A stretch of 8,544 nucleotides of DNA from a virus. Taxonomy: Duplodnaviria; Heunggongvirae; Uroviricota; Caudoviricetes. Both the position numbers and the translations under genes were made by a program. Position 1 is the first letter of the stretch; every line of letters starts with the position of its first letter. A model generated the notes under the pieces. The model was given only the letters and a program-made list of their open reading frames with translations. It was not told the origin of the DNA and made no database searches. Below are positions 1 through 8,544 of this stretch, piece by piece. The stretch is from the IMG/VR virus record IMGVR_UViG_2751185968_000010; one strand, given 5' to 3'.

Positions 1-163
1 CATCGTCGCCCTTCCACTGGTTATCCCAGCCCTCAGGCTTCACTTTAAAGTACGGCGGGTCCGTGACTATCAGGTCAACAGAATTTTCGGGTAACGACCG
101 GATAAATTCCAGGCAGTCGGCGTTGATTAACTCACAACTGGATATTTTTACAGTATTAAGCAT
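1..163 (-). CDS. DNA methyltransferase, N-terminal 54 codons (beta-class N6-adenine/N4-cytosine type); gene continues beyond the window start
   Basis: Minus-strand ORF starting at ATG (163-161) and open to position 1. My translation: MLNTVKISSCELINADCLEFIRSLPENSVDLIVTDPPYFKVKPEGWDNQWKGDD. The D-P-P-Y motif near the N-terminus is the catalytic motif IV of amino-MTases. Not in the ORF track because it is partial. Confidence 0.75.
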   Translation of the reverse strand, partial: MLNTVKISSCELINADCLEFIRSLPENSVDLIVTDPPYFKVKPEGWDNQWKGDD

Positions 164-256
164 GGATCATTAAGCCTGTCTCTGATAGGCTCATTCTGCT
201 TTTGCGCAAAGCAGTGGGCCTGAGGTTTGCTTGTGAACCCAACGCATGAGCAGATG

Positions 257-285
257 GCTGGTGGGTGCCCCTAACACCCACCAGC
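257..285. repeat. Perfect 11-bp inverted repeat GCTGGTGGGTG / CACCCACCAGC with 7-nt loop (GC-rich stem-loop); no adjacent U-tract
   Basis: Read directly from the sequence. Lies in the leader between a minus-strand terminator and the methyltransferase start. Confidence 0.6.
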
Positions 286-298
286 GCCCATTTACCAC

Positions 299-326
299 AA
301 ATAAAAAAGCCTTCACTGCGGAAGGC
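299..326 (-). terminator. Rho-independent terminator (minus strand) at the 3' end of the small ORF
   Basis: Stem GCCTTC / GAAGGC (309-314 / 321-326) with 6-nt loop; on the minus strand it is followed by UUUUUUAUUU (plus-strand A-tract 302-308). The stop codon of the 313-510 ORF lies within the stem. Confidence 0.5.
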
Positions 327-510
327 GTCTGTAACAACCGAACTGATAGTCTGCCAGATCCGCCATAACCAGCTGGGTCAGTATTAACTGGCAGCGTTCG
401 CGTGAAAGGTAAGTATTCTGCGCTATCTCCCCGACTGTCGCCGGTTCGGTAACGCTTAATTCATTAAACACCACTCTGGCGGTTTCTGTCATATCCTGCT
501 GTTTTAGCAT
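313..510 (-). CDS. Small hypothetical protein (65 aa from ATG 510-508); possible helix-turn-helix DNA-binding protein
   Basis: ORF-track ORF 313..597 trimmed to the first in-frame ATG (MLKQQDMTETARV...), preceded by AGGGA about 7 nt upstream. The segment ATVGEIAQNTYLSRERCQLILTQLV looks like an HTH. Bracketed by two minus-strand terminators. Confidence 0.45.
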   Translation of the reverse strand: MLKQQDMTETARVVFNELSVTEPATVGEIAQNTYLSRERCQLILTQLVMADLADYQFGCYRRLPQ

Positions 511-631
511 GTCTTTTTCCCTTTTCCGGTTAACGTGACACACCAATAACTCTTGTCGAAAAAGCCAGCAAGCTGAAAGACAGGTATTCACCGCCACCAG
601 CGCGTTTACTATACTGACGCGATTTCAGTCA

Positions 632-657
632 TAAAAAACCCGCCAGGCGGCGGGGTG
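632..657 (-). terminator. tR'-like intrinsic terminator about 60 nt downstream of the PR'-like start
   Basis: Minus-strand RNA CCCGCC-GCCU-GGCGGG followed by UUUUUUAU; no U-tract on the plus strand. Confidence 0.55.
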
Positions 658-690
658 TAAAAAATCTTCTAACGTCAGGCATAAAACGCC

Positions 691-731
691 CATCGTTAGA
701 GCAAATTTACCACAGATTCGGGAAAAATCAA
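691..731 (-). promoter_or_regulatory. PR'-like late promoter with probable Q-utilisation (qut) region
   Basis: Minus strand: -35 TTGATT (731-726), 16-nt spacer, -10 TAAATT (709-704). The segment GGTAAATTTGCTCTAACGATGGG closely resembles my recollection of lambda PR' (GGTAAATTTGACTCAACGATGGG). Sits immediately downstream of the Q gene. Confidence 0.55.
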
Positions 732-736
732 CAACA

Positions 737-1558
737 CTATCGCGTTACCCTCTTTAACTGCCGCTCCGCCCATGCCTCTTCAATGTCAAACCGAACCACC
801 AACGTATCGTAAAAGCGTTTCACTGATTTTTTCCACGTATCAAGCGTGATAGCACTCGTCACTTTGCATATGGCATTAAATGCCTCCGTTGATGGTAGTC
901 TTTCACAGCCACGACCACCACAACGCTGGCAGTCTCTGATAACAGGCATACCACGTTTTACCGACTCTTCACGATGAATGGCGACACCACGCCCACGGCA
1001 ATCCTTACAGGCGGTGGAAACCTCACCCTTTCCGCCACACTCCGGACAGGCAACTTTTACCACCTCCCTGACTTTTTTCCATTCTTCCCAGTAAGACGGA
1101 TACACACCTTTCGTACACTTTGCCCATACCGGCGGCTTACCATCCGGATACTGGATCTTGTTTGTAAAAACCTCGCTTTCAATAAATTTTTTTCCGTGAC
1201 AGCAGGAGCACTGTTTTTTGCTCGCCGCGCTACGGGCATAATCTTCAAACGCATACGAAGCCATAATACGCATCACTGCCGGTTTTATTTCTGCCGGGAG
1301 TTTTCTTAACGCCGCCACGCGATCACACCGACTGAGTGCATATTCTGTCAGCAATTCTGTTGCCCGCTCTCTGTCATTCATACTAATGCCCATTTTCCCA
1401 AGGAACGCAGAAAACCCCATCTCAGCCCGATTCTGTGTCATGCCCTGCGCGGCCATCACATCAGTGATACTCAGCGCATCTTTCGACGTTGAGGCCGATG
1501 CATCAGTCAGGCCGGGGGATTTTGGGGAGTAGTATTTCGGTAAATCTTCCAGTTTCAT
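737..1558 (-). CDS. Q: Late-gene antitermination protein Q (lambda-Q family) with an expanded cysteine-rich insert
   Basis: 273-aa ORF. N-terminus MKLEDLPKYYSPKSPGL...DVMAAQGM and C-terminus YDTLVV...RVTR align with my recollection of lambda Q (MRLESVAKFHSPKSP...DVMAAMGM ... YDALVV...AVTR). Contains CSCCHGKK, CPECGGKG, CKDCRGRG and CQRCGGRG repeats. Start ATG overlaps the rusA stop (ATGA). Confidence 0.8.
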   Translation of the reverse strand: MKLEDLPKYYSPKSPGLTDASASTSKDALSITDVMAAQGMTQNRAEMGFSAFLGKMGISMNDRERATELLTEYALSRCDRVAALRKLPAEIKPAVMRIMASYAFEDYARSAASKKQCSCCHGKKFIESEVFTNKIQYPDGKPPVWAKCTKGVYPSYWEEWKKVREVVKVACPECGGKGEVSTACKDCRGRGVAIHREESVKRGMPVIRDCQRCGGRGCERLPSTEAFNAICKVTSAITLDTWKKSVKRFYDTLVVRFDIEEAWAERQLKRVTR

Positions 1559-1929
1559 TTTTTGACCTGCCCTTCAAGCATTATGGGGTAAATCTTCACG
1601 CCCAGCCGCCCCCCAGGAACGCGCTGACCGCGCACAATATTGATTTCATCAAACTGCTCGTCGTCTATGAGAAGTCCGGCATGCGTCAGCGCATCCAGTG
1701 GTGCTTTCAGAATATTGTCCAGGTCGCGACGACGCTTATCCGGTGGCTCTGCAATCACCTTTATCGCCAGCCTTCCGGACAGGCTTAATTTCAGCCGCTG
1801 CTGGCGAACAATAAGCGCCACAGCCCGGCGATAACGCTTTCCCTCCTCCGAGATAAAATATGTGCTGCCACGGCGTCGCCAGTAAGTGTTCACCGTCGGC
1901 GGGTAAGGTAAAACCAAATCTATGAGCAT
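1555..1929 (-). CDS. rusA: Holliday junction resolvase RusA (prophage-encoded)
   Basis: 124-aa ORF. The segment KRRRDLDNILKAPLDALTHAGLLIDDEQ...GGRL matches the conserved RusA core (K-12 RusA has [22 protein letters not shown]). SD AAGAGGTGA upstream; 4-nt overlap with Q. Confidence 0.9.
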   Translation of the reverse strand: MLIDLVLPYPPTVNTYWRRRGSTYFISEEGKRYRRAVALIVRQQRLKLSLSGRLAIKVIAEPPDKRRRDLDNILKAPLDALTHAGLLIDDEQFDEINIVRGQRVPGGRLGVKIYPIMLEGQVKK

Positions 1930-1941
1930 CAGTCACCTCTT

Positions 1942-2988
1942 TTACCCAAGCACGCCAGTTGCAAAGGCGTGATCAAGAAAACGAAAAATTAAATCAACCT
2001 GAGAACCATGCTTTTCTTCGAACGCCAGAGGATCCGCATGAAGCTCGTTGTGATGCTCCCGACACAGCGGTAGCGTGAAAATATCGTGAGATTTTGTCCC
2101 CATTCCGCCCTGACCATGACCAATCAGGTGATGGGGATCGTCGGCTGGCTTACCACAACACGCACACGGCTGTGTCTTCACCCAGCGTGTGTATTTCTCG
2201 TTAACCCAGCGGCGACGTTTAGGTCGTTTCATGAAAGATTCCGGAGACTCAGGATCAACGGCAATGCTGACCACCGTCTCTTCCTGTGGCGGGTTTTGCT
2301 GGTGGGCGTGAGACAGCGGCGCAAGATTTTTTGTGCGCTGCTTCAGTATGCTGGTGGCGGTCTGCTCTCCCGGTACGATGTCGCTTTCACGGTACATTGA
2401 GCGGATTTTTTCCGCACGCAACCCCAGCGAACGACGTAATACCGCTTCCGGTAGCGCGTCCGCCACCTGATTGCGGACCGCCCACCAGGATAATTCAGCC
2501 AGCGATAATTCCCGTTCCTGCGAGCCATTCATTGCATGGAGTATGACGTCAATCATCCATGCAGACAGGTTTTGGTGAGCAAGTTGCCCGAGTGATTCGG
2601 AGGTCTGGTCGCGCAGCTGGTTGTCGCAGTGCCAGCACAACACCATTGCGCCGGTACCATAACGGTGAATGACGGTTTCACTGTGGTGATAATCGCCGTG
2701 TGGCCACTGGCAGGATTTAACATGGCGCAGTAACCAGTCAGACAATGCGCCAGCGCCACCAGCAGCACGAATCACTCGTTCGTCGCTGAAAAATGGCAGT
2801 AATGATTTATCCTCCGCCAGCGGCTGGCGAACGGCAGGAACGACCCCGGACGACAGATTACGCATGCTTTTCGGTTCCGGCTCCACCAGTACCCGGGTAT
2901 TGTGGAATACCGGCATGGATTCACGGCCCGGCTTAACGATCACCAGCCCGAGTTCCGGTACCAGAACAGGTCGAAGTAATACCCGCAC
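1942..2988 (-). CDS. Prophage DUF968-like protein with C-terminal HNH-like motif (YdfU-like)
   Basis: 348-aa ORF with GTG start directly after the upstream stop and SD GGAGG 4 nt upstream. C-terminus PCACCGKPADDPHHLIGHGQGGMGTKSHDIFTLPLCREHHNELH has a CxxC...HH...CxxHH...H pattern typical of HNH/zinc-ribbon nucleases. Size and position recall the Qin-prophage protein YdfU. Confidence 0.7.
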   Translation of the reverse strand: MRVLLRPVLVPELGLVIVKPGRESMPVFHNTRVLVEPEPKSMRNLSSGVVPAVRQPLAEDKSLLPFFSDERVIRAAGGAGALSDWLLRHVKSCQWPHGDYHHSETVIHRYGTGAMVLCWHCDNQLRDQTSESLGQLAHQNLSAWMIDVILHAMNGSQERELSLAELSWWAVRNQVADALPEAVLRRSLGLRAEKIRSMYRESDIVPGEQTATSILKQRTKNLAPLSHAHQQNPPQEETVVSIAVDPESPESFMKRPKRRRWVNEKYTRWVKTQPCACCGKPADDPHHLIGHGQGGMGTKSHDIFTLPLCREHHNELHADPLAFEEKHGSQVDLIFRFLDHAFATGVLG

Positions 2989-2989
2989 G

Positions 2990-3268
2990 TTACCTCCAGA
3001 TACGTTGCTGGAATGTGCGGGACGGACGCGGTGGCCGTTCGGAGTAAGGGAGCCTGACGGAGATTATCCAGTGACGGTAGTCGAGGCTAAGGGCTTTTTT
3101 AACCTCGCATCCGCGCCTGCGGTAACACTGAATGAGCCAATCGGCCTGTTCTTCAGTGCATGGGGGATGCTGGTACCAGTCTGACTTAAATGCATGAGAA
3201 TACCGCTCGTGCGTGTGGGCAAGAACGGTCGAATTATCATGATTGTAATATTTTGCGTTGCGTGCCAT
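2990..3268 (-). CDS. Hypothetical prophage protein (92 aa), translationally coupled to the downstream DUF968 gene
   Basis: ATG start with GGAG about 8 nt upstream; its stop is 1 nt before the next start; E. coli-like composition. No family recognised. Confidence 0.55.
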   Translation of the reverse strand: MARNAKYYNHDNSTVLAHTHERYSHAFKSDWYQHPPCTEEQADWLIQCYRRRGCEVKKALSLDYRHWIISVRLPYSERPPRPSRTFQQRIWR

Positions 3269-3334
3269 CGGTTTTCTCCGGTGGCACGGTGTTACTCAGC
3301 GGGAGTTCAGCCCCGCGCAAGATTGTAGATGAGT

Positions 3335-3586
3335 TTATTCTTCTGAAAAAGCAGAAAAGCCAGCTTTTATTCCGATCTCTTTCAATGCCTGTAATGAAGT
3401 GACAAACTCACCGTCGCGCAAGATAAATCCGTCCGTCACTCGGGCATCCACAAAATTAATTAACGCAGCCCCATTTTTTTGCAAACACACAATGCGGTAA
3501 TGACTAACAATATTTCCATTTTCAACGCACACAGCATAGAGGCCATCTTCACAAAAAATTTTACGCAGTTCTTCGATGTTCATCAT
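3335..3586 (-). CDS. Small hypothetical prophage protein (83 aa), immediately downstream of the hok locus
   Basis: ATG start with SD GGAAGGA 7 nt upstream. Same size and position as rem in the Qin prophage of K-12, as I recall that gene order; sequence identity not confirmed. Confidence 0.55.
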   Translation of the reverse strand: MMNIEELRKIFCEDGLYAVCVENGNIVSHYRIVCLQKNGAALINFVDARVTDGFILRDGEFVTSLQALKEIGIKAGFSAFSEE

Positions 3587-3664
3587 CAGAATCCTTCCGG
3601 ATAATTAGCTCTCCCCTTTAAGGGACCATCCCTCTTATCCCTGCGCGCTACTTAAGTATTTTTG

Positions 3665-3694
3665 ATTCTATTCCGGCACCGTCCAGAACTTCAA
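3665..3694 (-). promoter_or_regulatory. Candidate sigma70 promoter for the small-gene/DUF968/rusA/Q operon
   Basis: Minus strand: -35 TTGAAG (3694-3689), 18-nt spacer, -10 TAGAAT (3670-3665). Located between the hok terminator and the next gene. Weak by itself. Confidence 0.25.
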
Positions 3695-3700
3695 ACGCGT

Positions 3701-3733
3701 TGAAAATAAAAACAAAAACCCGCCGAAGCGGGT
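3701..3733 (-). terminator. Rho-independent terminator at the hok mRNA 3' end
   Basis: Minus-strand RNA CCCGC-UUCG-GCGGG followed by UUUUUGUUUUUAUUUU. Just upstream on the RNA, CCUCAACGCACC is complementary to the mRNA 5' end GGUGCUUGAGG (fbi/tac-like pairing). Confidence 0.65.
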
Positions 3734-3802
3734 TAAGTGCGGGTGCGTTGAGGATGCCTGCCACATCAGAGGTGGCGAGGGATTTCTCCCTCGCCGGGTC
3801 TC

Positions 3803-3958
3803 TTACTCCTCAGGTTCGTAAGCTGTGAAGACAGCGACCTCCGTCTGGCCGGTTCGGATTCGTACCTCGCAGAGGTCTTTCCTCGTTACCAGTGCCGTCA
3901 CTATGACGGTTAAACAGATGACGATCAGGGCGATTAGCATCGCCTTTTGCTGCTTCAT
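3803..3958 (-). CDS. hokD: Hok-family type I toxin (HokD/RelF-like), 51 aa
   Basis: Translation MKQQKAMLIALIVICLTVIVTALVTRKDLCEVRIRTGQTEVAVFTAYEPEE matches my recollection of HokD (RelF) and is close to Gef. SD AAGGAGAAG upstream. Single TM helix followed by the conserved C-terminal domain. Confidence 0.9.
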   Translation of the reverse strand: MKQQKAMLIALIVICLTVIVTALVTRKDLCEVRIRTGQTEVAVFTAYEPEE

Positions 3959-4128
3959 AGCCTGCTTCTCCTTGCCTTTCGGCACGTAAGAGGCTAACCT
4001 ACGTGTGTAGAGCATAGATATGGCCTCAGATTAATGTTAAGCGTCTTGCCGGACGCGTAATGTTAACTGGGGCTTTTCTCTATCTGCCTTTGGTGTTGAT
4101 GCCCGAGGCAGATAGCCTCAAGCACCCG
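3959..4128 (-). promoter_or_regulatory. hok mRNA leader: tac-like 5' element, sok-target region and an in-frame upstream (mok-like) start at 4015-4013
   Basis: Minus-strand leader GGTGCTTGAGGCTATCTGCCTCGGGC... parallels the plasmid R1 hok leader (GGCGCTTGAGGCTTTCTGCCTCATGACG...) as I recall it. The upstream ATG opens a frame continuous with hok (track ORF 3803..4015). Confidence 0.5.
3986..4060 (+). ncRNA. Candidate Sok-like antisense RNA (type I antitoxin); ends approximate
   Basis: Plus strand CTTGCCTTTCGGCACGTAAGAGGCTAACCT... is positionally and sequence-wise analogous to the R1 sok promoter/5' region (..CTTGCGCAAAGCGCGGTAAGAGGCTATCCT..). Antisense to the mok-like start. Confidence 0.35.
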
Positions 4129-4133
4129 CAGCA

Positions 4134-4162
4134 ATTCTACTTAACTACCGTTACCTCGCCAA
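4134..4162 (-). promoter_or_regulatory. Candidate hok promoter
   Basis: Minus strand: -35 TTGGCG (4162-4157), 17-nt spacer, -10 TAGAAT (4139-4134), about 7 nt upstream of the inferred mRNA 5' end GGTGCTTGAGG. Confidence 0.4.
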
Positions 4163-4537
4163 TATGAAATCAATCAGAAAGGTGATCCATAAGAACAACA
4201 GCAAGACAATAAATTGCCATTACAGCAGCAATAGCCAGCGCACATTTGAGAACCAGCACCACAACCTCCTGTATTGGACGTACACCAGTCCTGATAAATA
4301 TGAGGCTGTCTCGTCAGTGATTCAATACAACTACTGGGTATAGTTTCTATGATTTTGTTCTGTGGAAATGGAAAACAGCAACCAGTCACCACCAGCACTT
4401 CTTTAAACATGCCAAGTCACACGCAAGCCAACATTATAGTTCCCTTTGAGCGAGCAGATGAAGCTAGCAAAAATATTGATCACTTAGGATGCATTACTAA
4501 CGTTGCTATGTGTTAACGAACAGGGAGTGGGTCATCA

Positions 4538-4553
4538 GCATAAATATTTATGC
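4538..4553. repeat. Perfect 16-bp palindrome GCATAAATATTTATGC about 150 bp upstream of the membrane-protein gene
   Basis: Read directly; the reverse complement is identical. Confidence 0.6.
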
Positions 4554-4700
4554 AGTAGGTTTCTTTTAGGACTAGATTAATCAAAAACATTTAGATAAAA
4601 TTATAAAATCAAGAAATTGGTGGCAATTAATCTTTAATTGTGCCAGCTGAATTTCGTTATTATAGAAGATTAGCTTTTTTTTGAATGTTTGGAGAGTAAA

Positions 4701-5480
4701 ATGTTAGAACCACCAAAGAGTTATAATGAAATGTTGCCTATGCTCCATAAGGCGACTTTTATTACTACATTTATATTTTACCTATCATTAGTCATTTATG
4801 GCTACATGCCATTGGTTGGCATTAATGCCAAGTATATCCCCCCCGTTAAAGACTACGAGGAATTTATTAAATGGATATTAACCTTTGGCATATTACCAAT
4901 TGCATCTTCAGTTTTTTGGTCAGTAATTAGTGGAGCTTTAGATCTACATAATAATGTAGCAAAAATTATTGGAATAAGGAAGATGTGGGATAGTCATTTA
5001 ATTATTAAACCATTAGCAAAAATTGCAGGCGTTACGAGAAAATTAACTACTGATGAATCTCACAAGGTAATGAGTAAACTGTATTACCCAGAAGTTAAAG
5101 AGTTAAAAGACAAACATTACGTTGAACTTTTCTGGAACAAAGTTTATTACTTTTGGGTTTTCTTTGAACATACAGTAATCGCATTTGTTACTATTTTAAT
5201 AATAAGTATCGCCAAATTAACAAATATATTCTCTGTTACTGGCTCTTTAATTAATCTTTGGTTGTGGATTATTTCTCTTGTCGCATTTGACTTCCTTATT
5301 TTCATAGCATCAGTTAAACCAAGAACAGAAAGCCAAGTAAGACAAATACCTGATAGCAAAATAAAAGAATTCTTTAACAATAACAATATTTTTTTAAACG
5401 AGGTTGATTTTGAATTACAAAATAAATGGAATAAACATACGTTCAGAAAATGCAGCGAAACCGCACACTATGCCATCTAA
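4701..5480 (+). CDS. Hypothetical integral membrane protein, 259 aa, four predicted TM helices
   Basis: ATG at 4701 with SD GGAGAG 4 nt upstream (track ORF starts at an upstream TTG). Hydrophobic segments ATFITTFIFYLSLVIYGYMPLVGI, WILTFGILPIASSVFWSVISGAL, VYYFWVFFEHTVIAFVTILIISIA, LINLWLWIISLVAFDFLIFIASV. A 780-nt open frame in 30% GC DNA is unlikely by chance. Confidence 0.7.
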   Translation: MLEPPKSYNEMLPMLHKATFITTFIFYLSLVIYGYMPLVGINAKYIPPVKDYEEFIKWILTFGILPIASSVFWSVISGALDLHNNVAKIIGIRKMWDSHLIIKPLAKIAGVTRKLTTDESHKVMSKLYYPEVKELKDKHYVELFWNKVYYFWVFFEHTVIAFVTILIISIAKLTNIFSVTGSLINLWLWIISLVAFDFLIFIASVKPRTESQVRQIPDSKIKEFFNNNNIFLNEVDFELQNKWNKHTFRKCSETAHYAI

Positions 5481-6063
5481 CTATCTCTGTAAACAGATTG
5501 AAAGCACTAATAAAAATGGCAATGCCCTTGATTTTGGATGTGGAAAACTTAGATATTCAGAACAATTAGTAAATAAATTTGAAACTGTGACATTTTTAGA
5601 TTCCAGAAGACAACTAGAAAGAGTGCAAATTATCAGAGGTGTACAAACCACGATTCCAGATTACGTGATAAATAACTATAAGAATGCTAATATTGTTTCT
5701 TATGAAAATATAGATAAAATAACAAATCATTATGATTTCATACTTTGCGCAAACGTGCTTTCCGCAATTCCATGTGAATCCACAATTCACAAAGTCCTCA
5801 GTGCGATTAGAGAATTATTAAAGAGTGATGGTGAAGCACTGATTGTCAATCAATACAAAAGTTCTTATTTCAAGAGGTACGAGAGCGGTATTAAACATTT
5901 GCATGGGTATATATACCAAAACTCTCGTAATGCTTTCTACTATGGTTTATTAGATGTGGATACTGTAAGTAAAATATGCTCAGATAATAATTTAGAAATA
6001 ATAAAATCATGGAGCAAAGCAGGTAGTTCATATGTGGTTGTTGGTAAACATATACATATTTAG
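5470..6063 (+). CDS. Small class-I SAM-dependent methyltransferase (197 aa from ATG 5470; alternative TTG starts at 5404/5410)
   Basis: Rossmann MTase motifs in order: motif I ALDFGCGKL, acidic post-I VTFLD, motif II DFILCANVL, motif III LLKSDGEALIV. No (D/N/S)PP(Y/F) motif, so probably not a DNA amino-MTase. ATG 5470 overlaps the upstream stop (ATGCCATCTAA). Confidence 0.65.
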   Translation: MPSNYLCKQIESTNKNGNALDFGCGKLRYSEQLVNKFETVTFLDSRRQLERVQIIRGVQTTIPDYVINNYKNANIVSYENIDKITNHYDFILCANVLSAIPCESTIHKVLSAIRELLKSDGEALIVNQYKSSYFKRYESGIKHLHGYIYQNSRNAFYYGLLDVDTVSKICSDNNLEIIKSWSKAGSSYVVVGKHIHI

Positions 6064-6377
6064 TTTATTTCAACAAATTATTAGAAAGAGTGATTTGCTT
6101 GTTAATTATTAGCTCGGCAGTGCCGGATCAACATGACCCTGCCACTTAGGCCATTGCCGGTTTATCTACTTTTGTAAGGTTCAGCATGAAGTTTTTATAT
6201 ACTCTTCCTAATATCAATAGTGATGCTCGCTTATGTTAGCTGCTTCTTGTACATAGTAGCCTTCTCCGACAGTACTGCAATGAGCGGAGAGTAAAAGTCG
6301 ATAAACAATAAGGAGGTTCACAATAAATATTTCTCGGTGAAACTTTCAAAGCATTCTCTGTTTTGCTAAATCGACAA

Positions 6378-7277
6378 TTATAAATCAACAACATTTAGTG
6401 TTATATCAATATTATTTAGCCTTGCAATCTCTGATGAATCACTTGCTATTTTAGCTTTTAATTTATCAATATTAATCATATCTTCATGGCTTATATAAAC
6501 CATATCACCTTGGTTAACTTTAGATTTGTTCACTATGGCTTGAATAACAGACAAATCATCCATTACACCTCTCATAAATTTCACCATGCTTTGATCTTTG
6601 AAGTCAGATATCGATTTTGAACGTTGCTTACGTTGAATTGTTCCTTTTGTAATTACTTCATTAATTTCTTTTAAACCAGTGAGCATATCAGACAGACTGC
6701 CTTCGCAACTCATCCGATGTTTTATTGCATTGCGATTAATAATATTGAGTATAATTTCGAGTGAATCTTTATCACTCCATGGATGTAATGATGTATAATC
6801 ATGATGGCGTCGAATGGCGTCAATCATATCCTGGACCATATCTTCATCTGCTTTATCGCAAAGTTCATTCACGAAATAGCTGGGGTCGATTATTTTACAA
6901 TAACTTGGAGTTAGGTATCTTGAGGCTTTACAAAAACCAAAAATATATAAAGTAGAGTATTTATCTTTCAGACTCTCTCCTATTTCATTTGTTTCCTCAA
7001 AAGATTCGATAGTTTTTTTAATTTTTGCTGGACTTGCATTCGTAGTAACTTGAACTGCTATCATGTTTTTATTATCAGCTAAATCAATGGCGGGAAAATT
7101 AACTTTAATCTGATTCATGTTTACCAGTTCACCCATTTTCAGCGCGCGAAACATAAAGATGGTCAATGACTCAATTATTCTTTCCATGTCATGAAAGCCT
7201 GCCTGTTTGCGTTGCGCGATATAAAGCTGGAGTAGTGCAATATCACTCTGTAAGTTTCTAATAAGTGGATCAATCAT
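6378..7277 (-). CDS. Hypothetical 299-aa protein with a candidate HEPN-type R-N-x-x-x-H motif (putative RNase/abortive-infection-like)
   Basis: ATG start with SD AAGGA 9 nt upstream. Residues 182-187 RNAIKH (nt 6734-6717), in a predicted helical context LEIILNIINRNAIKHRMS, fit the HEPN Rx4-6H signature. N-terminal region has a strand-like AIDLADNKNMIAVQVTT segment. No family assignment is possible without a search. Confidence 0.65.
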   Translation of the reverse strand: MIDPLIRNLQSDIALLQLYIAQRKQAGFHDMERIIESLTIFMFRALKMGELVNMNQIKVNFPAIDLADNKNMIAVQVTTNASPAKIKKTIESFEETNEIGESLKDKYSTLYIFGFCKASRYLTPSYCKIIDPSYFVNELCDKADEDMVQDMIDAIRRHHDYTSLHPWSDKDSLEIILNIINRNAIKHRMSCEGSLSDMLTGLKEINEVITKGTIQRKQRSKSISDFKDQSMVKFMRGVMDDLSVIQAIVNKSKVNQGDMVYISHEDMINIDKLKAKIASDSSEIARLNNIDITLNVVDL

Positions 7278-7313
7278 AGCTAATAATCCTTTTCAATGAA
7301 GCTGGAGGTGTGT

Positions 7314-7346
7314 TTAACTATTAGTTAAATTTCTATTTTTATAGAA
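7314..7346. repeat. Two adjacent palindromes in the promoter region of the 299-aa gene (TTAACTA-T-TAGTTAA and TTCTAT-TTTT-ATAGAA)
   Basis: Read directly: 7314-7328 and 7331-7346, 37-70 bp upstream of the start codon at 7277. Confidence 0.5.
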
Positions 7347-7529
7347 ACAAGCTTTACAACTTCATCAAAGTTTCTCAAATCCTAATCCACTTTGCAAATC
7401 CACTAACCATGCTGAATGCTTTCTGTTGTTAAACATATCCGCTGCTGGCACCAAGCAGACAAACACACTAACTCTACCCTACTCCACAAAAGAGCCAATC
7501 AATATCTGAACTAATAAACTTTAATCTCA

Positions 7530-7952
7530 TCACTTCAATAAATATCGAGCATTTCCCTGATAGAATGCTAGTATGCGCTGCATAACTTCACTCTTCCGGC
7601 ACTCGCGACAGATTATGTTCTGACGCCTGTCGTAGCGACGTATTTCTCCGTCAGGTAATGACCAGATAAGGTCCGGATCAACCGCAGATGGTTCCTTCAG
7701 CTTTGCCCTTGAGAGCTTTTTACGGGCATTTTGCCAGTCCTTACGCGCCTGTTCAGACGGGAATAACCCGTAACCAGAGTTGTATACATCGCCGCTGGCA
7801 ACCAGCTCTCTTGCGAGAACGCTCATCAGATATCTTGTCGCACCTGTCTTGACTTCCAGTTGCCGTAACGTCTCACGACCGCTCTGGCGCACGAGTTCCA
7901 CCACCTGCCCTTTAATTTTTTCCCGCTCTTCTTGTGTAAAAACTTTTGCCAC
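7530..7952 (-). CDS. Hypothetical protein (140 aa), backbone-like GC
   Basis: GTG start with strong SD AAGGGGGA 4-5 nt upstream; about 50% GC; no family recognised. Confidence 0.6.
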   Translation of the reverse strand: MAKVFTQEEREKIKGQVVELVRQSGRETLRQLEVKTGATRYLMSVLARELVASGDVYNSGYGLFPSEQARKDWQNARKKLSRAKLKEPSAVDPDLIWSLPDGEIRRYDRRQNIICRECRKSEVMQRILAFYQGNARYLLK

Positions 7953-7992
7953 AAGTCCCCCTTAAAATTACCTCATGACCTGAAATCAAAAC

Positions 7993-8183
7993 TTATCCTC
8001 TGAAACCAGGCGGAATTTCTGTATCCGGTTCAGAAATATGATTAACACAACGCTGTACAGGTGAACGCCCCAGGCGGATGACCAGTTCGTCCCATTTTTC
8101 GCGGAGCTTTGACGGGCTCATGATGTTTTTTACCCAGAACGGATCCCGCTGTACCCGACCAAACATTTCACAAATTTGTCTGT
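7993..8183 (-). pseudogene. Possible 3' remnant of a gene truncated by the IS insertion (open frame abutting the IS end)
   Basis: Minus-strand frame open from the IS junction (8183) to a stop at 7995-7993: ...RQICEMFGRVQRDPFWVKNIMSPSKLREKWDELVIRLGRSPVQRCVNHISEPDTEIPPGFRG. Could also be non-coding. Confidence 0.25.
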
Positions 8184-8544
8184 TGAACCGCCCCGGGAAT
8201 CCTGGAGACTAAACTCCCTGAGAAAGAGGTAAACAGGATGACTAAAAATACTCGTTTTTCCCCCGAAGTCCGTCAGAGGGCGATTCGTATGGTTCTGGAA
8301 AGTCAGGGCGAATATGACTCACAGTGGGCGGCAATTTGTTCCATTGCCCCAAAGATTGGCTGTACACCGGAGACTCTGCGTGTCTGGGTACGCCAGCATG
8401 AGCGGGATACCGGAGGCGGTGATGGCGGGCTCACCACCGCTGAACGTCAGCGTCTGAAAGAGCTGGAACGTGAAAATCGTGAACTGCGCCGCAGTAACGA
8501 TATCCTTCGCCAGGCTTCCGCTTATTTTGCGAAGGCGGAGTTCG
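8184..8544 (+). mobile_element. IS3-family insertion sequence, left end (IS629-like); continues beyond the window
   Basis: Terminal sequence TGAACCGCCCCGGGAATCCTGGAGACTAAAC... starting with TG, followed 54 nt later by the OrfA start; matches my recollection of the IS629 left end. Confidence 0.8.
8238..8544 (+). CDS. IS3-family transposase OrfA (HTH subunit), first 102 codons; 3' end outside the window
   Basis: Translation [102 protein letters not shown] matches IS629/IS1203-type OrfA as I remember it. SD GAGG upstream. Confidence 0.9.

What the first reader, a model, noticed from the sequence alone, without database searches (positions are those of the whole stretch)
3803..7952. Variable cargo slot upstream of hokD: in K-12 Qin this position holds relBE, here a different island
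The backbone order here (hok, small gene, DUF968 protein) matches what I recall for the Qin prophage of E. coli K-12, where relB-relE lie immediately upstream of hokD. No RelE/RelB coding sequence is present in this window; the same position carries the low-GC three-gene island instead. That makes the slot a likely exchange hotspot for toxin or defence modules.
Basis: partly seen in the sequence, partly recalled or inferred. Interest (0 to 1): 0.65.

Follow-up and report, generated by a model that had tools for sequence, protein, structure and literature searches.

The report
Prophage cargo slot beside hokD
Between the replication genes and the hok toxin gene of this Qin/Rac-type E. coli prophage lies a slot that holds different genes in different strains, often anti-phage defence genes; in most sampled copies the cargo is bracketed by two short related palindromic DNA sites, which also bracket other accessory genes across enterobacteria.

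Summary
The window carries the Qin-type backbone Q–RusA–DUF968–92-aa gene–rem–hokD on the minus strand. A three-gene block of 32% GC (about 4462–7437) follows, then a DUF977 (Ren-like) gene. There is no RelB or RelE.

The hotspot interpretation is supported. In 25 arrangements compared (the window's own and 24 others), this interval holds more than 20 different contents. Ten have family-level PADLOC hits or Abi-family annotation, including PD-T7-1, Tmn, AbiH, AbiGi and kinase/phosphatase. Two of these loci are deposited phage genome records.

One correction: relBE in K-12 is not a clean allele of the slot. It belongs to a larger replacement that runs from 14 nt upstream of hok to the middle of ydaT.

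The window's cargo has two separable parts: a stand-alone SMEK (Mrr-like) nuclease gene, and a membrane-protein plus SAM-methyltransferase operon. Each occurs alone in other mobile elements.

New here: the cargo is bracketed by two 22-nt palindromes with the same arms and different centres. These sites, and a composite of both, also bracket accessory-gene cassettes in many Enterobacterales. This suggests cassette exchange at the sites, but no recombinase was found.

The parts
737..1558 (-). Q-type antiterminator (backbone)
   Evidence: Pfam Antiterm E 1e-49; only 40% identical to K-12 YdfT
1555..1929 (-). RusA Holliday-junction resolvase (backbone; absent from K-12 Qin)
   Evidence: RefSeq annotation of the near-identical strain B-1109
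1942..2988 (-). DUF968 / YdfU-like protein with an HNH-like C-terminus (backbone)
   Evidence: Pfam DUF968 E 1.4e-76; 84% identical to K-12 YdfU
2990..3268 (-). 92-aa phage gene of unknown function (backbone)
   Evidence: PHROG 1212 E 2.9e-36; present in most sampled loci
3335..3586 (-). rem; in other strains this position is a second variable slot
   Evidence: 94% identical to K-12 Rem. Replaced by RmrT/RmrA (RosmerTA) in strain 83972 (RmrA E 6e-105, RmrT E 5e-25); by a similarly sized hypothetical + ImmA/IrrE-HTH pair in phage Tritos (annotation only); by HTH + ImmA/IrrE in JNE120393
3803..3958 (-). hokD toxin gene (51 aa); in-frame 70-codon ORF extends to 4015
   Evidence: Pfam HOK_GEF E 2.9e-23; 51/51 identical to K-12 HokD
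3953..4127 (-). hok mRNA 5' leader / sok antisense region; a promoter-like site lies at 4162-4134
   Evidence: Rfam RF01794, 114 bits (gathering score 59), E 4.8e-26; no match in K-12; promoter-like TTGGCG-17-TAGAAT
4170..4259 (-). unannotated 29-codon hydrophobic ORF (MLVLKCALAIAAVMAIYCLAVVLMDHLSD) within the shared backbone segment 4165-4460
   Evidence: GTG start preceded by AGGAGG/AGGAGA; ORF intact with mostly conservative substitutions in 6 loci
4440..4461 (+). degenerate left boundary site A (consensus TCCGCTTT-GAGCGA-GGAGCGGA)
   Evidence: 5 mismatches to the site A consensus. Intact copies at the same place in 11 other loci. Left homology ends at window 4433-4471 in 7 of the 15 non-identical loci tabulated
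4701..5480 (+). 4-TM all-helical membrane protein. It is 231 aa (window 4701-5396) in relatives; here a T7 run replaces T6 at about 5390, removing the stop and extending the ORF to 5480
   Evidence: Hydrophobic segments 21-41, 59-80, 159-177, 187-205; AlphaFold2 model pLDDT 86.9; no Pfam, PADLOC, PHROG or fold match; homopolymer difference from B-1109
5410..6063 (+). class I SAM-dependent methyltransferase of the small-molecule type, operon partner of the membrane protein
   Evidence: Pfam Methyltransf_12/23 and TehB (E 2e-8 to 2e-5); NCBIfam weak hits, all below curated cut-offs, to OvoA C-terminus, TehB, CpaM and BioC; adjacent to the membrane gene in all five other contexts examined
6378..7277 (-). 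SMEK-domain protein: N-terminal Mrr-like PD-(D/E)xK nuclease domain plus a C-terminal helical bundle
   Evidence: Pfam SMEK_N E 1.6e-22; NCBIfam E 4.9e-31; PDB sequence hit to the Mrr domain of Kordia Mrr-APAZ pAgo, E 2.2e-7; E36, D65, Q76, T78, K85 invariant in 30 homologues; AlphaFold2 pLDDT 83.7
7438..7459 (+). right boundary site B (TCCGCTGC-TGGCAC-CAAGCAGA; consensus TCCGCTTC-TGGCAC-AAAGCGGA), about 70 nt downstream of the DUF977 stop and 161 nt upstream of the SMEK start
   Evidence: 3 mismatches to the consensus; conserved at this position in 12 other loci. A B site lies about 174 nt upstream of SMEK in unrelated Enterobacter elements
7530..7952 (-). DUF977 / Ren-like protein, right-hand anchor gene of the slot
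   Evidence: Pfam DUF977 E 1.7e-30; PHROG 142 'Ren-like exclusion protein' E 1.5e-46
7993..8183 (-). 3' remnant of the O-like replication gene, cut by an insertion sequence
   Evidence: Identity to B-1109 (a 966-nt gene there) stops at 8183
8184..8544 (+). left end of an IS3-family insertion sequence
   Evidence: ALIL pseudoknot at 8519-8544; 98-99% identical to annotated IS3-family transposase genes

Best explanation
Window 3803-7952 spans one recurrent cargo slot of Qin/Rac/DicA-type lambdoid prophages. The slot lies just downstream of the replication module (O-like gene, DUF977/Ren-like gene) and upstream of the hok/sok locus and the rem-DUF968-RusA-Q block. This corresponds to the start of the 'nin' region of phage lambda.

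Shown:
- The flanks are conserved at 84-97% identity while the content differs completely between strains and phage records.
- The content often matches defence-gene families.
- In most sampled loci the cargo sits between two related 22-nt palindromic sites. Site A (GAGCGA centre) is on the hok side. Site B (TGGCAC centre) lies roughly 70-90 nt after the DUF977 stop.
- Sequence identity between loci collapses at the inner edge of these sites.
- The same sites, and a composite 'B, about 18 nt, A' unit, separate accessory-gene cassettes in prophages, plasmids and chromosomes of many Enterobacterales.

Shown for the window's cargo: it combines two modules that each occur alone elsewhere. One is a stand-alone SMEK (Mrr-like nuclease) plus helical-bundle protein. 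The other is a two-gene operon of a 4-TM membrane protein and a small-molecule-type SAM methyltransferase.

Inferred:
- Both modules are prophage-expressed anti-phage or exclusion functions. The SMEK protein probably acts as a DNA-degrading effector gated by its C-terminal bundle.
- Cargo is swapped between co-resident elements by recombination at or next to the A and B sites. Double exchange at two non-identical sites would replace the cassette while keeping the backbone.
For: Slot and flanks: the breakpoint table places the end of left homology at window 4146-4471 in four nested groups. Right homology starts at 7427-7446 in six loci and at 7504-7656 in six more. Unshared DNA is 0-3.2 kb with GC 0.32-0.47. 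The same architecture occurs in two deposited phage genome records, mEp460 (45.9 kb) and Tritos (46.4 kb).

Defence content: PADLOC hits.

Sites: 47 A/B sites were found in 644 kb of fetched loci, against 0 in each of five shuffles. In slot loci, identity to the consensus runs, for A, outside 0.91 / outer arm 0.92 / centre 0.92 / inner arm 0.74 / inside 0.43. For B it runs inside 0.49 / inner arm 0.81 / centre 0.94 / outer arm 0.94 / outside 0.84.

Wider occurrence: an exact scan of one genome per species found 74 stretches, 53 of which also carry B. The dominant neighbour orders are A..B and B..A in one orientation, with 29 composite BA units. Stems covary: 86.8% of cells are paired, 20 cells show double changes, 0 of 500 shuffles reach this, and slid controls give 33-47% paired. 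The composite is low-copy in E. coli, with a median of 1 and a maximum of 8 places per genome. Arrays were seen in a Rac-like prophage (A[c1]BA[c2]B[c3]B-DUF977) and on a plasmid.

Cargo modules: SMEK homologues of 45-83% identity lie in other mobile elements without the other two genes. Their neighbours include SMODS+S_4TM, SLATT_5, Abi_alpha, AbiGi, SymE and TacA/acetyltransferase genes. The membrane+methyltransferase pair occurs alone after ogr in P2/186-like prophages, directly after O-P in an Enterobacter lambdoid prophage, at a prophage end in Cronobacter, and on a relaxase-bearing element. One remote homologue of the membrane protein is fused to a ThsB-like TIR domain.
Against: No experiment links the window's three genes to phage resistance. 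None of them matches a PADLOC system as such; SMEK matches only the nuclease domain of pAgo-associated models.

Several slot occupants are not defence genes (QueH, paa adhesin, runs of small phage ORFs). Genes between A and B sites elsewhere are mostly ordinary accessory genes such as LysR regulators, GNAT acetyltransferases and ars genes. The sites are therefore not defence-specific.

No recombinase was found linked to the sites. The window's A site is degenerate, and some slot loci have breakpoints away from the sites (4146-4302). Ordinary homologous and illegitimate recombination therefore contributes as well.

The three genes also travel together at 84% nucleotide identity in a different lambdoid backbone (strain A42), so functional linkage among them is not excluded.

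The loci are a sample spread down one BLAST ranking, not a census.
Confidence: 0.7

Rival explanations
1. Ordinary lambdoid mosaicism. The region differs between strains only because cryptic prophages decay and recombine everywhere. On this view there is no privileged slot, and the A/B palindromes are incidental terminators or insulators that ride along with genes.
For: Left breakpoints are nested at four positions rather than one. K-12 and DL21 show plain deletions or replacements. A second variable position exists at rem. The window's own prophage is defective, with an IS in the O-like gene. Modular exchange among lambdoid phages is long established (Baker et al. 1991, as cited in PMC13586616).
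Against: The neighbouring backbone genes stay collinear in most sampled loci. In most of them the variable DNA is confined between the same two short sites. Identity drops from above 0.9 to below 0.5 within a few bases. The sites lack a T-tract, and the same site pair brackets unrelated cassettes in other replicons and genera.
Confidence: 0.2
2. The three island genes form one restriction-modification-like system. The methyltransferase would protect host DNA from the SMEK nuclease, and the membrane protein would act as sensor or anchor.
For: A nuclease and a methyltransferase lie side by side. The trio is conserved as a block at 84% identity in a second prophage backbone. In a Yersinia element, SMEK sits next to a different, N6_N4 DNA methyltransferase.
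Against: The methyltransferase matches small-molecule families (Methyltransf_12/23, TehB, OvoA C-terminus, BioC), not DNA methyltransferase families. SMEK homologues at 45-83% identity occur without it in eight other contexts. The membrane+methyltransferase pair occurs without SMEK in five contexts. The genes are convergent rather than an operon.
Confidence: 0.1
3. The membrane-protein/methyltransferase operon is a lysogenic-conversion or resistance module rather than an anti-phage system. It might methylate a small molecule or an envelope component, in the way that tehAB pairs a membrane protein with a methyltransferase.
For: Pfam TehB scores above its cut-off (24.4 against 20.4 bits). The gene order membrane protein then methyltransferase resembles tehAB (my own knowledge). 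Non-defence cargo such as ars, MFS and GNAT genes is common between A/B sites.
Against: The membrane protein has 4 TM segments and no similarity to TehA or any Pfam family. It sits at recognised cargo positions of prophages, and a remote homologue is fused to a TIR domain.
Confidence: 0.25

Closest known systems
[quoted passage not shown] 2022, PMC9122126; Vassallo et al. 2022, PMC9519451; PMC13586616)
   Same: Conserved phage core genes flank a short interval whose content differs between otherwise similar prophages. The interval is rich in known and candidate defence systems. PD-T7-1, first found in the Vassallo screen, occupies this slot in phage mEp460. The window's membrane+methyltransferase pair also sits after ogr in P2/186-like prophages.
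   Different: The phage type differs (lambdoid, Qin/Rac/DicA-DicC immunity type), as do the anchors (hok/sok and DUF977). I found no description of this slot in the searchable library. Here short palindromic sites bracket the cargo. The P2/P4 papers report no such sites, and PMC13586616 leaves the transfer mechanism open.
relBEF (relB-relE-hokD) operon of K-12 prophage Qin
   Same: Same backbone: hokD 100%, rem 94% and ydfU 84% identical at protein level. A toxin-antitoxin module lies directly upstream of hokD.
   Different: K-12 has lost the hok leader/sok, the small ORF, DUF977, the O-like gene and half of ydaT. There hokD is driven by the relBE promoter (PMC5120126). The window has an intact hok/sok locus and no relBE.
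Integron gene cassettes, pdif modules and heterospecific-site cassette exchange (comparison from my own knowledge)
   Same: Arrays of diverse promoter-poor accessory genes are separated by short structured palindromic sites. Two related but non-identical sites flank each cassette.
   Different: No intI or other recombinase was seen next to the arrays, and there is no GTTRRRY core. Cassette genes show no orientation bias (56 against 50). The arrays lie inside prophages, plasmids and chromosomes. The mechanism is untested.
SMEK-APAZ / short prokaryotic Argonaute systems (PMC10810196)
   Same: The same SMEK (Mrr-like) nuclease domain, with a sequence match to the Kordia Mrr-APAZ structure at E 2.2e-7.
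   Different: The window has no APAZ domain and no Argonaute gene. The C-terminus is a roughly 130-residue helical bundle, and the protein is encoded alone.

Membership tests
Prophage-encoded defence/cargo hotspot (as defined for P2/P4) | Conserved core genes on both sides of the interval | tested here: met
   The hok/sok locus on one side and DUF977 plus about 70-95 nt on the other are conserved at 84-97% in 12 of the 15 non-identical loci tabulated
Prophage-encoded defence/cargo hotspot (as defined for P2/P4) | Many unrelated gene contents in the interval among related elements | tested here: met
   More than 20 different contents in 25 arrangements
Prophage-encoded defence/cargo hotspot (as defined for P2/P4) | Known defence systems among the contents | tested here: met
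   PD-T7-1, Tmn, AbiH, AbiGi, AIPR/AbiU-like, DUF262, kinase+PP2C, PDC-S15, PDC-S39. Enrichment over the genome background was not computed.
Prophage-encoded defence/cargo hotspot (as defined for P2/P4) | Anti-phage activity of the cargo in this window | not testable with these tools
   Needs cloning and phage challenge
hok/sok type I toxin-antitoxin locus | Hok toxin ORF plus the 5' leader carrying the sok target and antisense gene | tested here: met
   Pfam HOK_GEF E 2.9e-23; Rfam RF01794 at 114 bits, above the gathering score of 59. K-12 hokD fails the second feature.
RelBE type II toxin-antitoxin | RelE/ParE-fold toxin and RelB antitoxin ORFs | tested here: not met
   tblastn of K-12 RelE and RelB against the window: best E 0.27 and 2.4
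SMEK / Mrr-like PD-(D/E)xK nuclease | SMEK_N domain above the curated threshold, with a conserved putative active site | tested here: met
   Pfam 80.3 bits (cut-off 27); NCBIfam 106.4 bits (cut-off 30); E36, D65, Q76, T78 and K85 invariant in 30 sequences down to 31% identity. Assigning these residues to catalysis is inference.
Short pAgo system (SMEK-APAZ + Argonaute) | APAZ domain fused to the nuclease and an adjacent short pAgo gene | tested here: not met
   The PADLOC match covers only residues 8-146 of a 463-position model. The C-terminus is a helical bundle. No Argonaute in the window or in the 22.9 kb of B-1109 read.
Type II restriction-modification system | DNA methyltransferase (N6/N4/C5 families) obligatorily paired with the nuclease | tested here: not met
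   Only small-molecule methyltransferase families hit. The nuclease and the methyltransferase occur apart in 13 other contexts.
Integron cassette array | IntI integrase, attI, and attC sites with R/L boxes | tested here: not met
   No integrase lies next to the slot. The A and B sites lack the RYYYAAC/GTTRRRY cores (read from the sequences). A systematic search for a linked recombinase was not done.
High-copy intergenic palindromes (REP/BIME type) | Hundreds of copies dispersed through the core genome | tested here: not met
   The composite is present at 80% coverage or more in 927 of 5,426 E. coli genomes, with a median of 1 and a maximum of 8 places per genome

The most novel reading that the evidence does not exclude
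The hok-DUF977 slot may be one docking point of a widespread, undescribed cassette system of Enterobacterales (and some Alteromonadales). In it, defence and other accessory genes are bracketed by two hairpin sites with identical arms but different 6-nt centres: A (GAGCGA) and B (TGGCAC). The sites are joined as B-A composites in arrays. Cassettes would move between prophages, plasmids and chromosomes by exchange at these two non-identical sites. The agent would be a hairpin- or palindrome-specific recombinase acting in trans, not yet identified. This would offer a mechanism for the unexplained shuttling of defence genes between unrelated mobile elements.
Probability: 0.3. Interest if true: 0.85.

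Novelty: new variant of a known kind. Interest (0 to 1): 0.6.

Why it matters
Prophage hotspots are a productive source of new anti-phage systems, and the best-mapped ones are in P2 and P4. This slot occurs in Qin- and Rac-type prophages. The query spanning hok and its upstream segment matched 4,768 of 5,426 complete E. coli genomes, although that count also includes hok loci in other contexts such as plasmids and 933W-type phages. The slot already contains validated systems next to several uncharacterised occupants. Among these are the stand-alone SMEK nuclease and the membrane-protein/methyltransferase pair of this window, both testable candidates.

How defence genes hop between unrelated mobile elements is still an open question (PMC13586616, Discussion). 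The two bracketing palindromic sites recur around unrelated cassettes in phages, plasmids and chromosomes. They give a concrete hypothesis that a recombination assay can test.

The comparison also clarifies the K-12 relBEF operon. It is the product of a larger replacement that destroyed an intact hok/sok locus, not a simple insertion.

Tried and rejected
- Sequence search of solved structures with the methyltransferase: nothing.
- Promoter and terminator scan of 3600-8000: no more sites than in shuffles, and no signals for the island genes.
- Terminal direct or inverted repeats around the island: only short, low-identity pairs. This generic search also missed the A/B sites, because the window's A copy is degenerate.
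- RNAalifold on the DUF977-downstream element did not pick out the B hairpin. It was then tested with a named structure on composite units.
- Literature: searches for the slot, for DUF977, for the three RefSeq protein accessions and for the site sequences found no description.
- Early Python runs wrongly suggested that some loci were missing; the files hold several records each. One fuzzy-regex scan timed out.
- Rejected ideas: the ~630-nt cassettes as IS200-like transposase genes, since their ORFs are GNATs, NUDIX, cupin, SMR and similar; the A/B sites as a high-copy REP family; the island as a short-pAgo system.

Full report
**Anatomy of the window.** The backbone genes all lie on the minus strand:
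- Q antiterminator, 737-1558
- RusA, 1555-1929
- DUF968/YdfU-like, 1942-2988
- a 92-aa gene, 2990-3268
- rem, 3335-3586
- hokD, 3803-3958

Further right are DUF977 (7530-7952) and the 3' end of an O-like replication gene (7993-8183). Between hok and DUF977 the GC content falls from 0.51 to 0.32. Three genes lie there: a 4-TM membrane protein from 4701 (+), a class I SAM methyltransferase at 5410-6063 (+), and a SMEK-domain protein at 6378-7277 (-).

The window is 99.96% identical over 1-8183 to a prophage at ompW in strain B-1109. There the backbone continues with ydaT, a cro/dicC-like gene, a dicA-like gene, ydfA, ydfB, ydfC, dicB, exo, xis and int. After 8183 the window runs into an IS3-family insertion sequence.

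**Check against K-12.** At protein level HokD is 100% identical, Rem 94%, YdfU 84% and Q only 40%. RelE and RelB have no counterpart in the window (best tblastn E 0.27 and 2.4).

DNA homology between the window and K-12 ends at window 3972, 14 nt upstream of the hok ATG. The window keeps the complete hok leader/sok region (Rfam RF01794, 114 bits, 3953-4127), and K-12 has no such match. On the other side, homology between B-1109 and K-12 resumes only inside the ydaT-like gene. K-12 ydfX is the N-terminal 93 residues of YdaT (98% identity).

The K-12 block relE-relB-ydfV-flxA-ydfW is therefore a replacement of about 2 kb. It removed the hok leader, a small ORF, the cargo slot, DUF977, the O-like gene and half of ydaT. 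The truncation of the hokD reading frame by relBE is already in the literature (PMC6379469), as is relBEF co-transcription (PMC5120126).

**Is the position a hotspot?** A search with 3600-4700 matched 4,768 of 5,426 complete E. coli genomes. That count also includes hok loci in other contexts, such as plasmids and 933W-type phages. The right-hand ends of the matches fall into classes. I read the annotation of 22 genomes taken from rows spread down that ranking, plus two phage records. With the window's own arrangement this makes 25. The sample is a spread, not a census. Contents between hok and DUF977 or the replication genes were:

| Locus | Content |
|---|---|
| window / B-1109 | membrane protein + methyltransferase + SMEK |
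| GMF065 | DUF262/GmrSD_N protein |
| ECN24 | AIPR protein |
| strain 3150 | 340-aa protein of unknown function |
| G5 | QueH + a methyltransferase fragment |
| R7 | QueH alone |
| DL21 | a deletion |
| ZY22049 | Sll1717-family ATPase |
| O103:H2 CEC12044 | Ser/Thr kinase + PP2C phosphatase |
| O157 ATCC 43890 | paa adhesin |
| phage mEp460 | 449-aa protein |
| phage Tritos | 444-aa protein |
| E1433 | AbiH |
| 2010C_3902 | alpha/beta hydrolase |
| ECOR29 | DUF4209 protein |
| NIPH17_0020 | AbiGi |
| MLI121 | HAD + NUDIX hydrolases |
| CEA224S | 1,210-aa protein |
| 32F4 | DUF5677 protein |
| 83972, ESC818, JNE120393 | runs of small phage ORFs |
| E7-1N7 | two proteins of unknown function |
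| K-12 | relBE block |

PADLOC profiles assign the following:
- the mEp460 protein to PD-T7-1 (E 4e-157)
- the Tritos protein to PDC-S15 (E 1e-98)
- the CEA224S protein to Tmn (E 6e-67)
- the DUF4209 protein to PDC-S39 (E 3e-102)
- the kinase to mad6, PD-T4-6 and Stk2
- the AIPR protein to AbiU
- the DUF262 protein to NsnA and PD-T4-2_A

These are family-level matches, not proof of function in these loci. The slot is present in two deposited phage genome records, so it is not confined to decayed chromosomal prophages.

A second variable position lies on the other side of hok. There rem is replaced by RmrT/RmrA (RosmerTA) in strain 83972. Phage Tritos has a similarly sized hypothetical plus ImmA/IrrE-HTH pair at that position (annotation only).

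**Boundaries.** Left homology to the window ends in four nested groups: 4146-4154 (the end of the hok locus), 4181-4206, 4282-4302 and 4433-4471. Right homology begins at 7427-7446 in six loci and at 7504-7656 in six others. The shared segment 4165-4460 contains an unannotated 29-codon hydrophobic ORF with a Shine-Dalgarno sequence. It is intact, with mostly conservative changes, in six loci.

Close reading of the junctions showed two related palindromes. Site A is TCCGCTTT-GAGCGA-GGAGCGGA, on the hok side. Site B is TCCGCTTC-TGGCAC-AAAGCGGA, which lies about 70 nt after the DUF977 stop in the window and about 90 nt after it in the Rac-like locus L131. The window has B at 7438-7459 (3 mismatches) and a degenerate A at 4440-4461 (5 mismatches).

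Across slot loci the identity to the consensus is as follows:

| Site | Backbone side (30 nt) | Outer arm | Centre | Inner arm | Cargo side (30 nt) |
|---|---|---|---|---|---|
| A | 0.91 | 0.92 | 0.92 | 0.74 | 0.43 |
| B | 0.84 | 0.94 | 0.94 | 0.81 | 0.49 |

The cargo junction therefore coincides with the inner edge of the sites.

**The sites elsewhere.**
- In all fetched loci there were 47 A/B sites in 644 kb, and none in five shuffles.
- They flank the SMEK gene in unrelated Enterobacter elements (B about 174 nt upstream, A 85 nt downstream). They also flank an FRG-domain gene and an MFS+GGCT+LysR block.
- An exact scan for site A in one genome per species returned 74 stretches. Most are Enterobacterales (Pantoea, Erwinia, Ewingella, Citrobacter, Enterobacter, Yersinia, Hafnia, Proteus and others), with some Idiomarina and relatives.
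- Of these stretches, 53 also carry B. Neighbouring sites are mostly A..B or B..A in one orientation. A composite 'B, about 18 nt, A' occurs 29 times. The arrays therefore read (BA) cassette (BA) cassette.
- On the composite alignment the two stems are 86.8% paired. Seven pairs and 20 cells change on both sides, 0 of 500 shuffles reach this, and slid controls give 33-47%. Strand bias of wobble pairs is weak (34 against 21).
- The genes between A and B are diverse accessory genes: LysR regulators, GNATs, ars, TetR, MFS and an OLD-family protein. They show no orientation bias.
- In E. coli the composite is low-copy and never annotated. It is present at 80% coverage or more in 927 of 5,426 genomes, with a median of one and a maximum of eight places per genome. 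A REP-type repeat is thereby excluded.
- A Rac-like prophage shows A[c1]BA[c2]B[c3]B-DUF977, and a plasmid shows B[DUF6602]BA[hyp]B.

I found no linked recombinase. A full-text search for the site sequences found no paper. A recent analysis of P2/P4 hotspots states that the mechanism of defence-gene transfer between unrelated elements is unresolved (PMC13586616).

Full-length homologues are widespread in Proteobacteria. They stand alone in integrative elements, plasmids and small islets, next to SMODS+S_4TM, SLATT_5, Abi_alpha, AbiGi, SymE or TacA/acetyltransferase genes.

The membrane protein (4 TM segments, pLDDT 86.9) matches no Pfam, PADLOC or PHROG family and no solved fold. It was followed by the methyltransferase in all five other contexts examined: P2/186-like prophages after ogr, an Enterobacter lambdoid prophage directly after O-P, a Cronobacter prophage end, and a relaxase-bearing element. 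A profile search found about 219 remote relatives, one of them fused to a ThsB-like TIR domain. The methyltransferase matches only small-molecule families.

The island is therefore a composite of two separable modules. However, the trio also occurs as a block at 84% identity in a different lambdoid backbone, inverted relative to that backbone. Co-function is therefore not excluded. The defence role of either module is inferred from context only.

**Verdict.** The hotspot interpretation is supported, with the correction that K-12 relBE is part of a larger replacement. As a prophage hotspot this is a further example of a known phenomenon. The pair of bracketing palindromic sites, shared with cassette arrays in many enterobacterial replicons, is the unexpected element. 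Its mechanism remains to be shown.

Noticed in passing
window 8184-8544 (and 7993-8183): An IS3-family insertion sequence (ALIL frameshift pseudoknot at 8519-8544) interrupts the O-like replication gene, which is 966 nt in strain B-1109. This copy of the prophage is probably replication-defective.
   Followed up: yes
window about 5385-5396: The window has a run of 7 T where B-1109 has 6. This removes the stop codon of the membrane-protein gene and adds 28 residues that overlap the methyltransferase start. It could be a real frameshift or a homopolymer sequencing error. A compensating 1-nt difference lies near position 285.
   Followed up: partly
window 4170-4259 (-): An unannotated 29-codon hydrophobic ORF (MLVLKCALAIAAVMAIYCLAVVLMDHLSD) with a GTG start and an AGGAGG Shine-Dalgarno sequence lies between the cargo and the hok promoter. 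It is intact, with mostly conservative substitutions, in six loci. It may be a small membrane peptide.
   Followed up: partly
window 3335-3586 (rem) compared with L035 3191-4925, L037 3167-4923 and L055 3515-4353: The rem position on the other side of hok is a second variable slot. It holds RmrT/RmrA (RosmerTA) in strain 83972, a similarly sized hypothetical + ImmA/IrrE-HTH pair in phage Tritos (annotation only), and HTH + ImmA/IrrE in JNE120393. In E7-1N7, type I HsdM/HsdS genes lie beyond hok.
   Followed up: partly
L043 (K-12) 4983-5004, inside ydfV: A B-type site in inverted orientation (TCCGCTTTGTGCCAGGAGCAGC) lies within the ydfV ORF, about 110 nt beyond relB. The K-12 relBE block may have entered through the same kind of site.
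   Followed up: no
window 195-215; also L001 5895, L009 2580, L010 2862, L051 1347, L055 107: A third palindrome with similar arms (TCTGCTTT-TGCGC-AAAGCAGT) recurs downstream of Q, near the DNA-methyltransferase/tRNA cargo region. It may be another member of the same site family, at the Q-to-lysis slot.
   Followed up: no
P0269 (remote homologue of the window 4701-5396 protein): A 395-aa protein fuses this 4-TM domain (residues 4-205) to a ThsB-like TIR domain (Pfam TIR_2 E 2e-20; PADLOC PDC-S66 and ThsB). This links the membrane module to conflict-system architectures.
   Followed up: partly
L131 6948-13928 (Rac-like prophage near trkG) and L132 7253-10739 (plasmid pE401651_221): Multi-cassette arrays are separated by B and B-A composite sites, reading A[c1]BA[c2]B[c3]B-DUF977. 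The same post-DUF977 slot can therefore hold several cassettes in a row, and such arrays also occur on plasmids next to a Hok gene.
   Followed up: partly
window 3713-3794 (-): A weak Rfam isrK-like match (25.7 bits, below the gathering score of 50) overlaps the hok terminator hairpin at 3734-3717. The same weak match occurs in K-12. It is probably only the terminator.
   Followed up: no
L044 (E. coli A42) 6160-8748: The same three genes occur at 84% nucleotide identity in a different lambdoid prophage (RepO/DnaB-type replication module). The block is inverted relative to that backbone and is followed by further genes of unknown function.
   Followed up: partly
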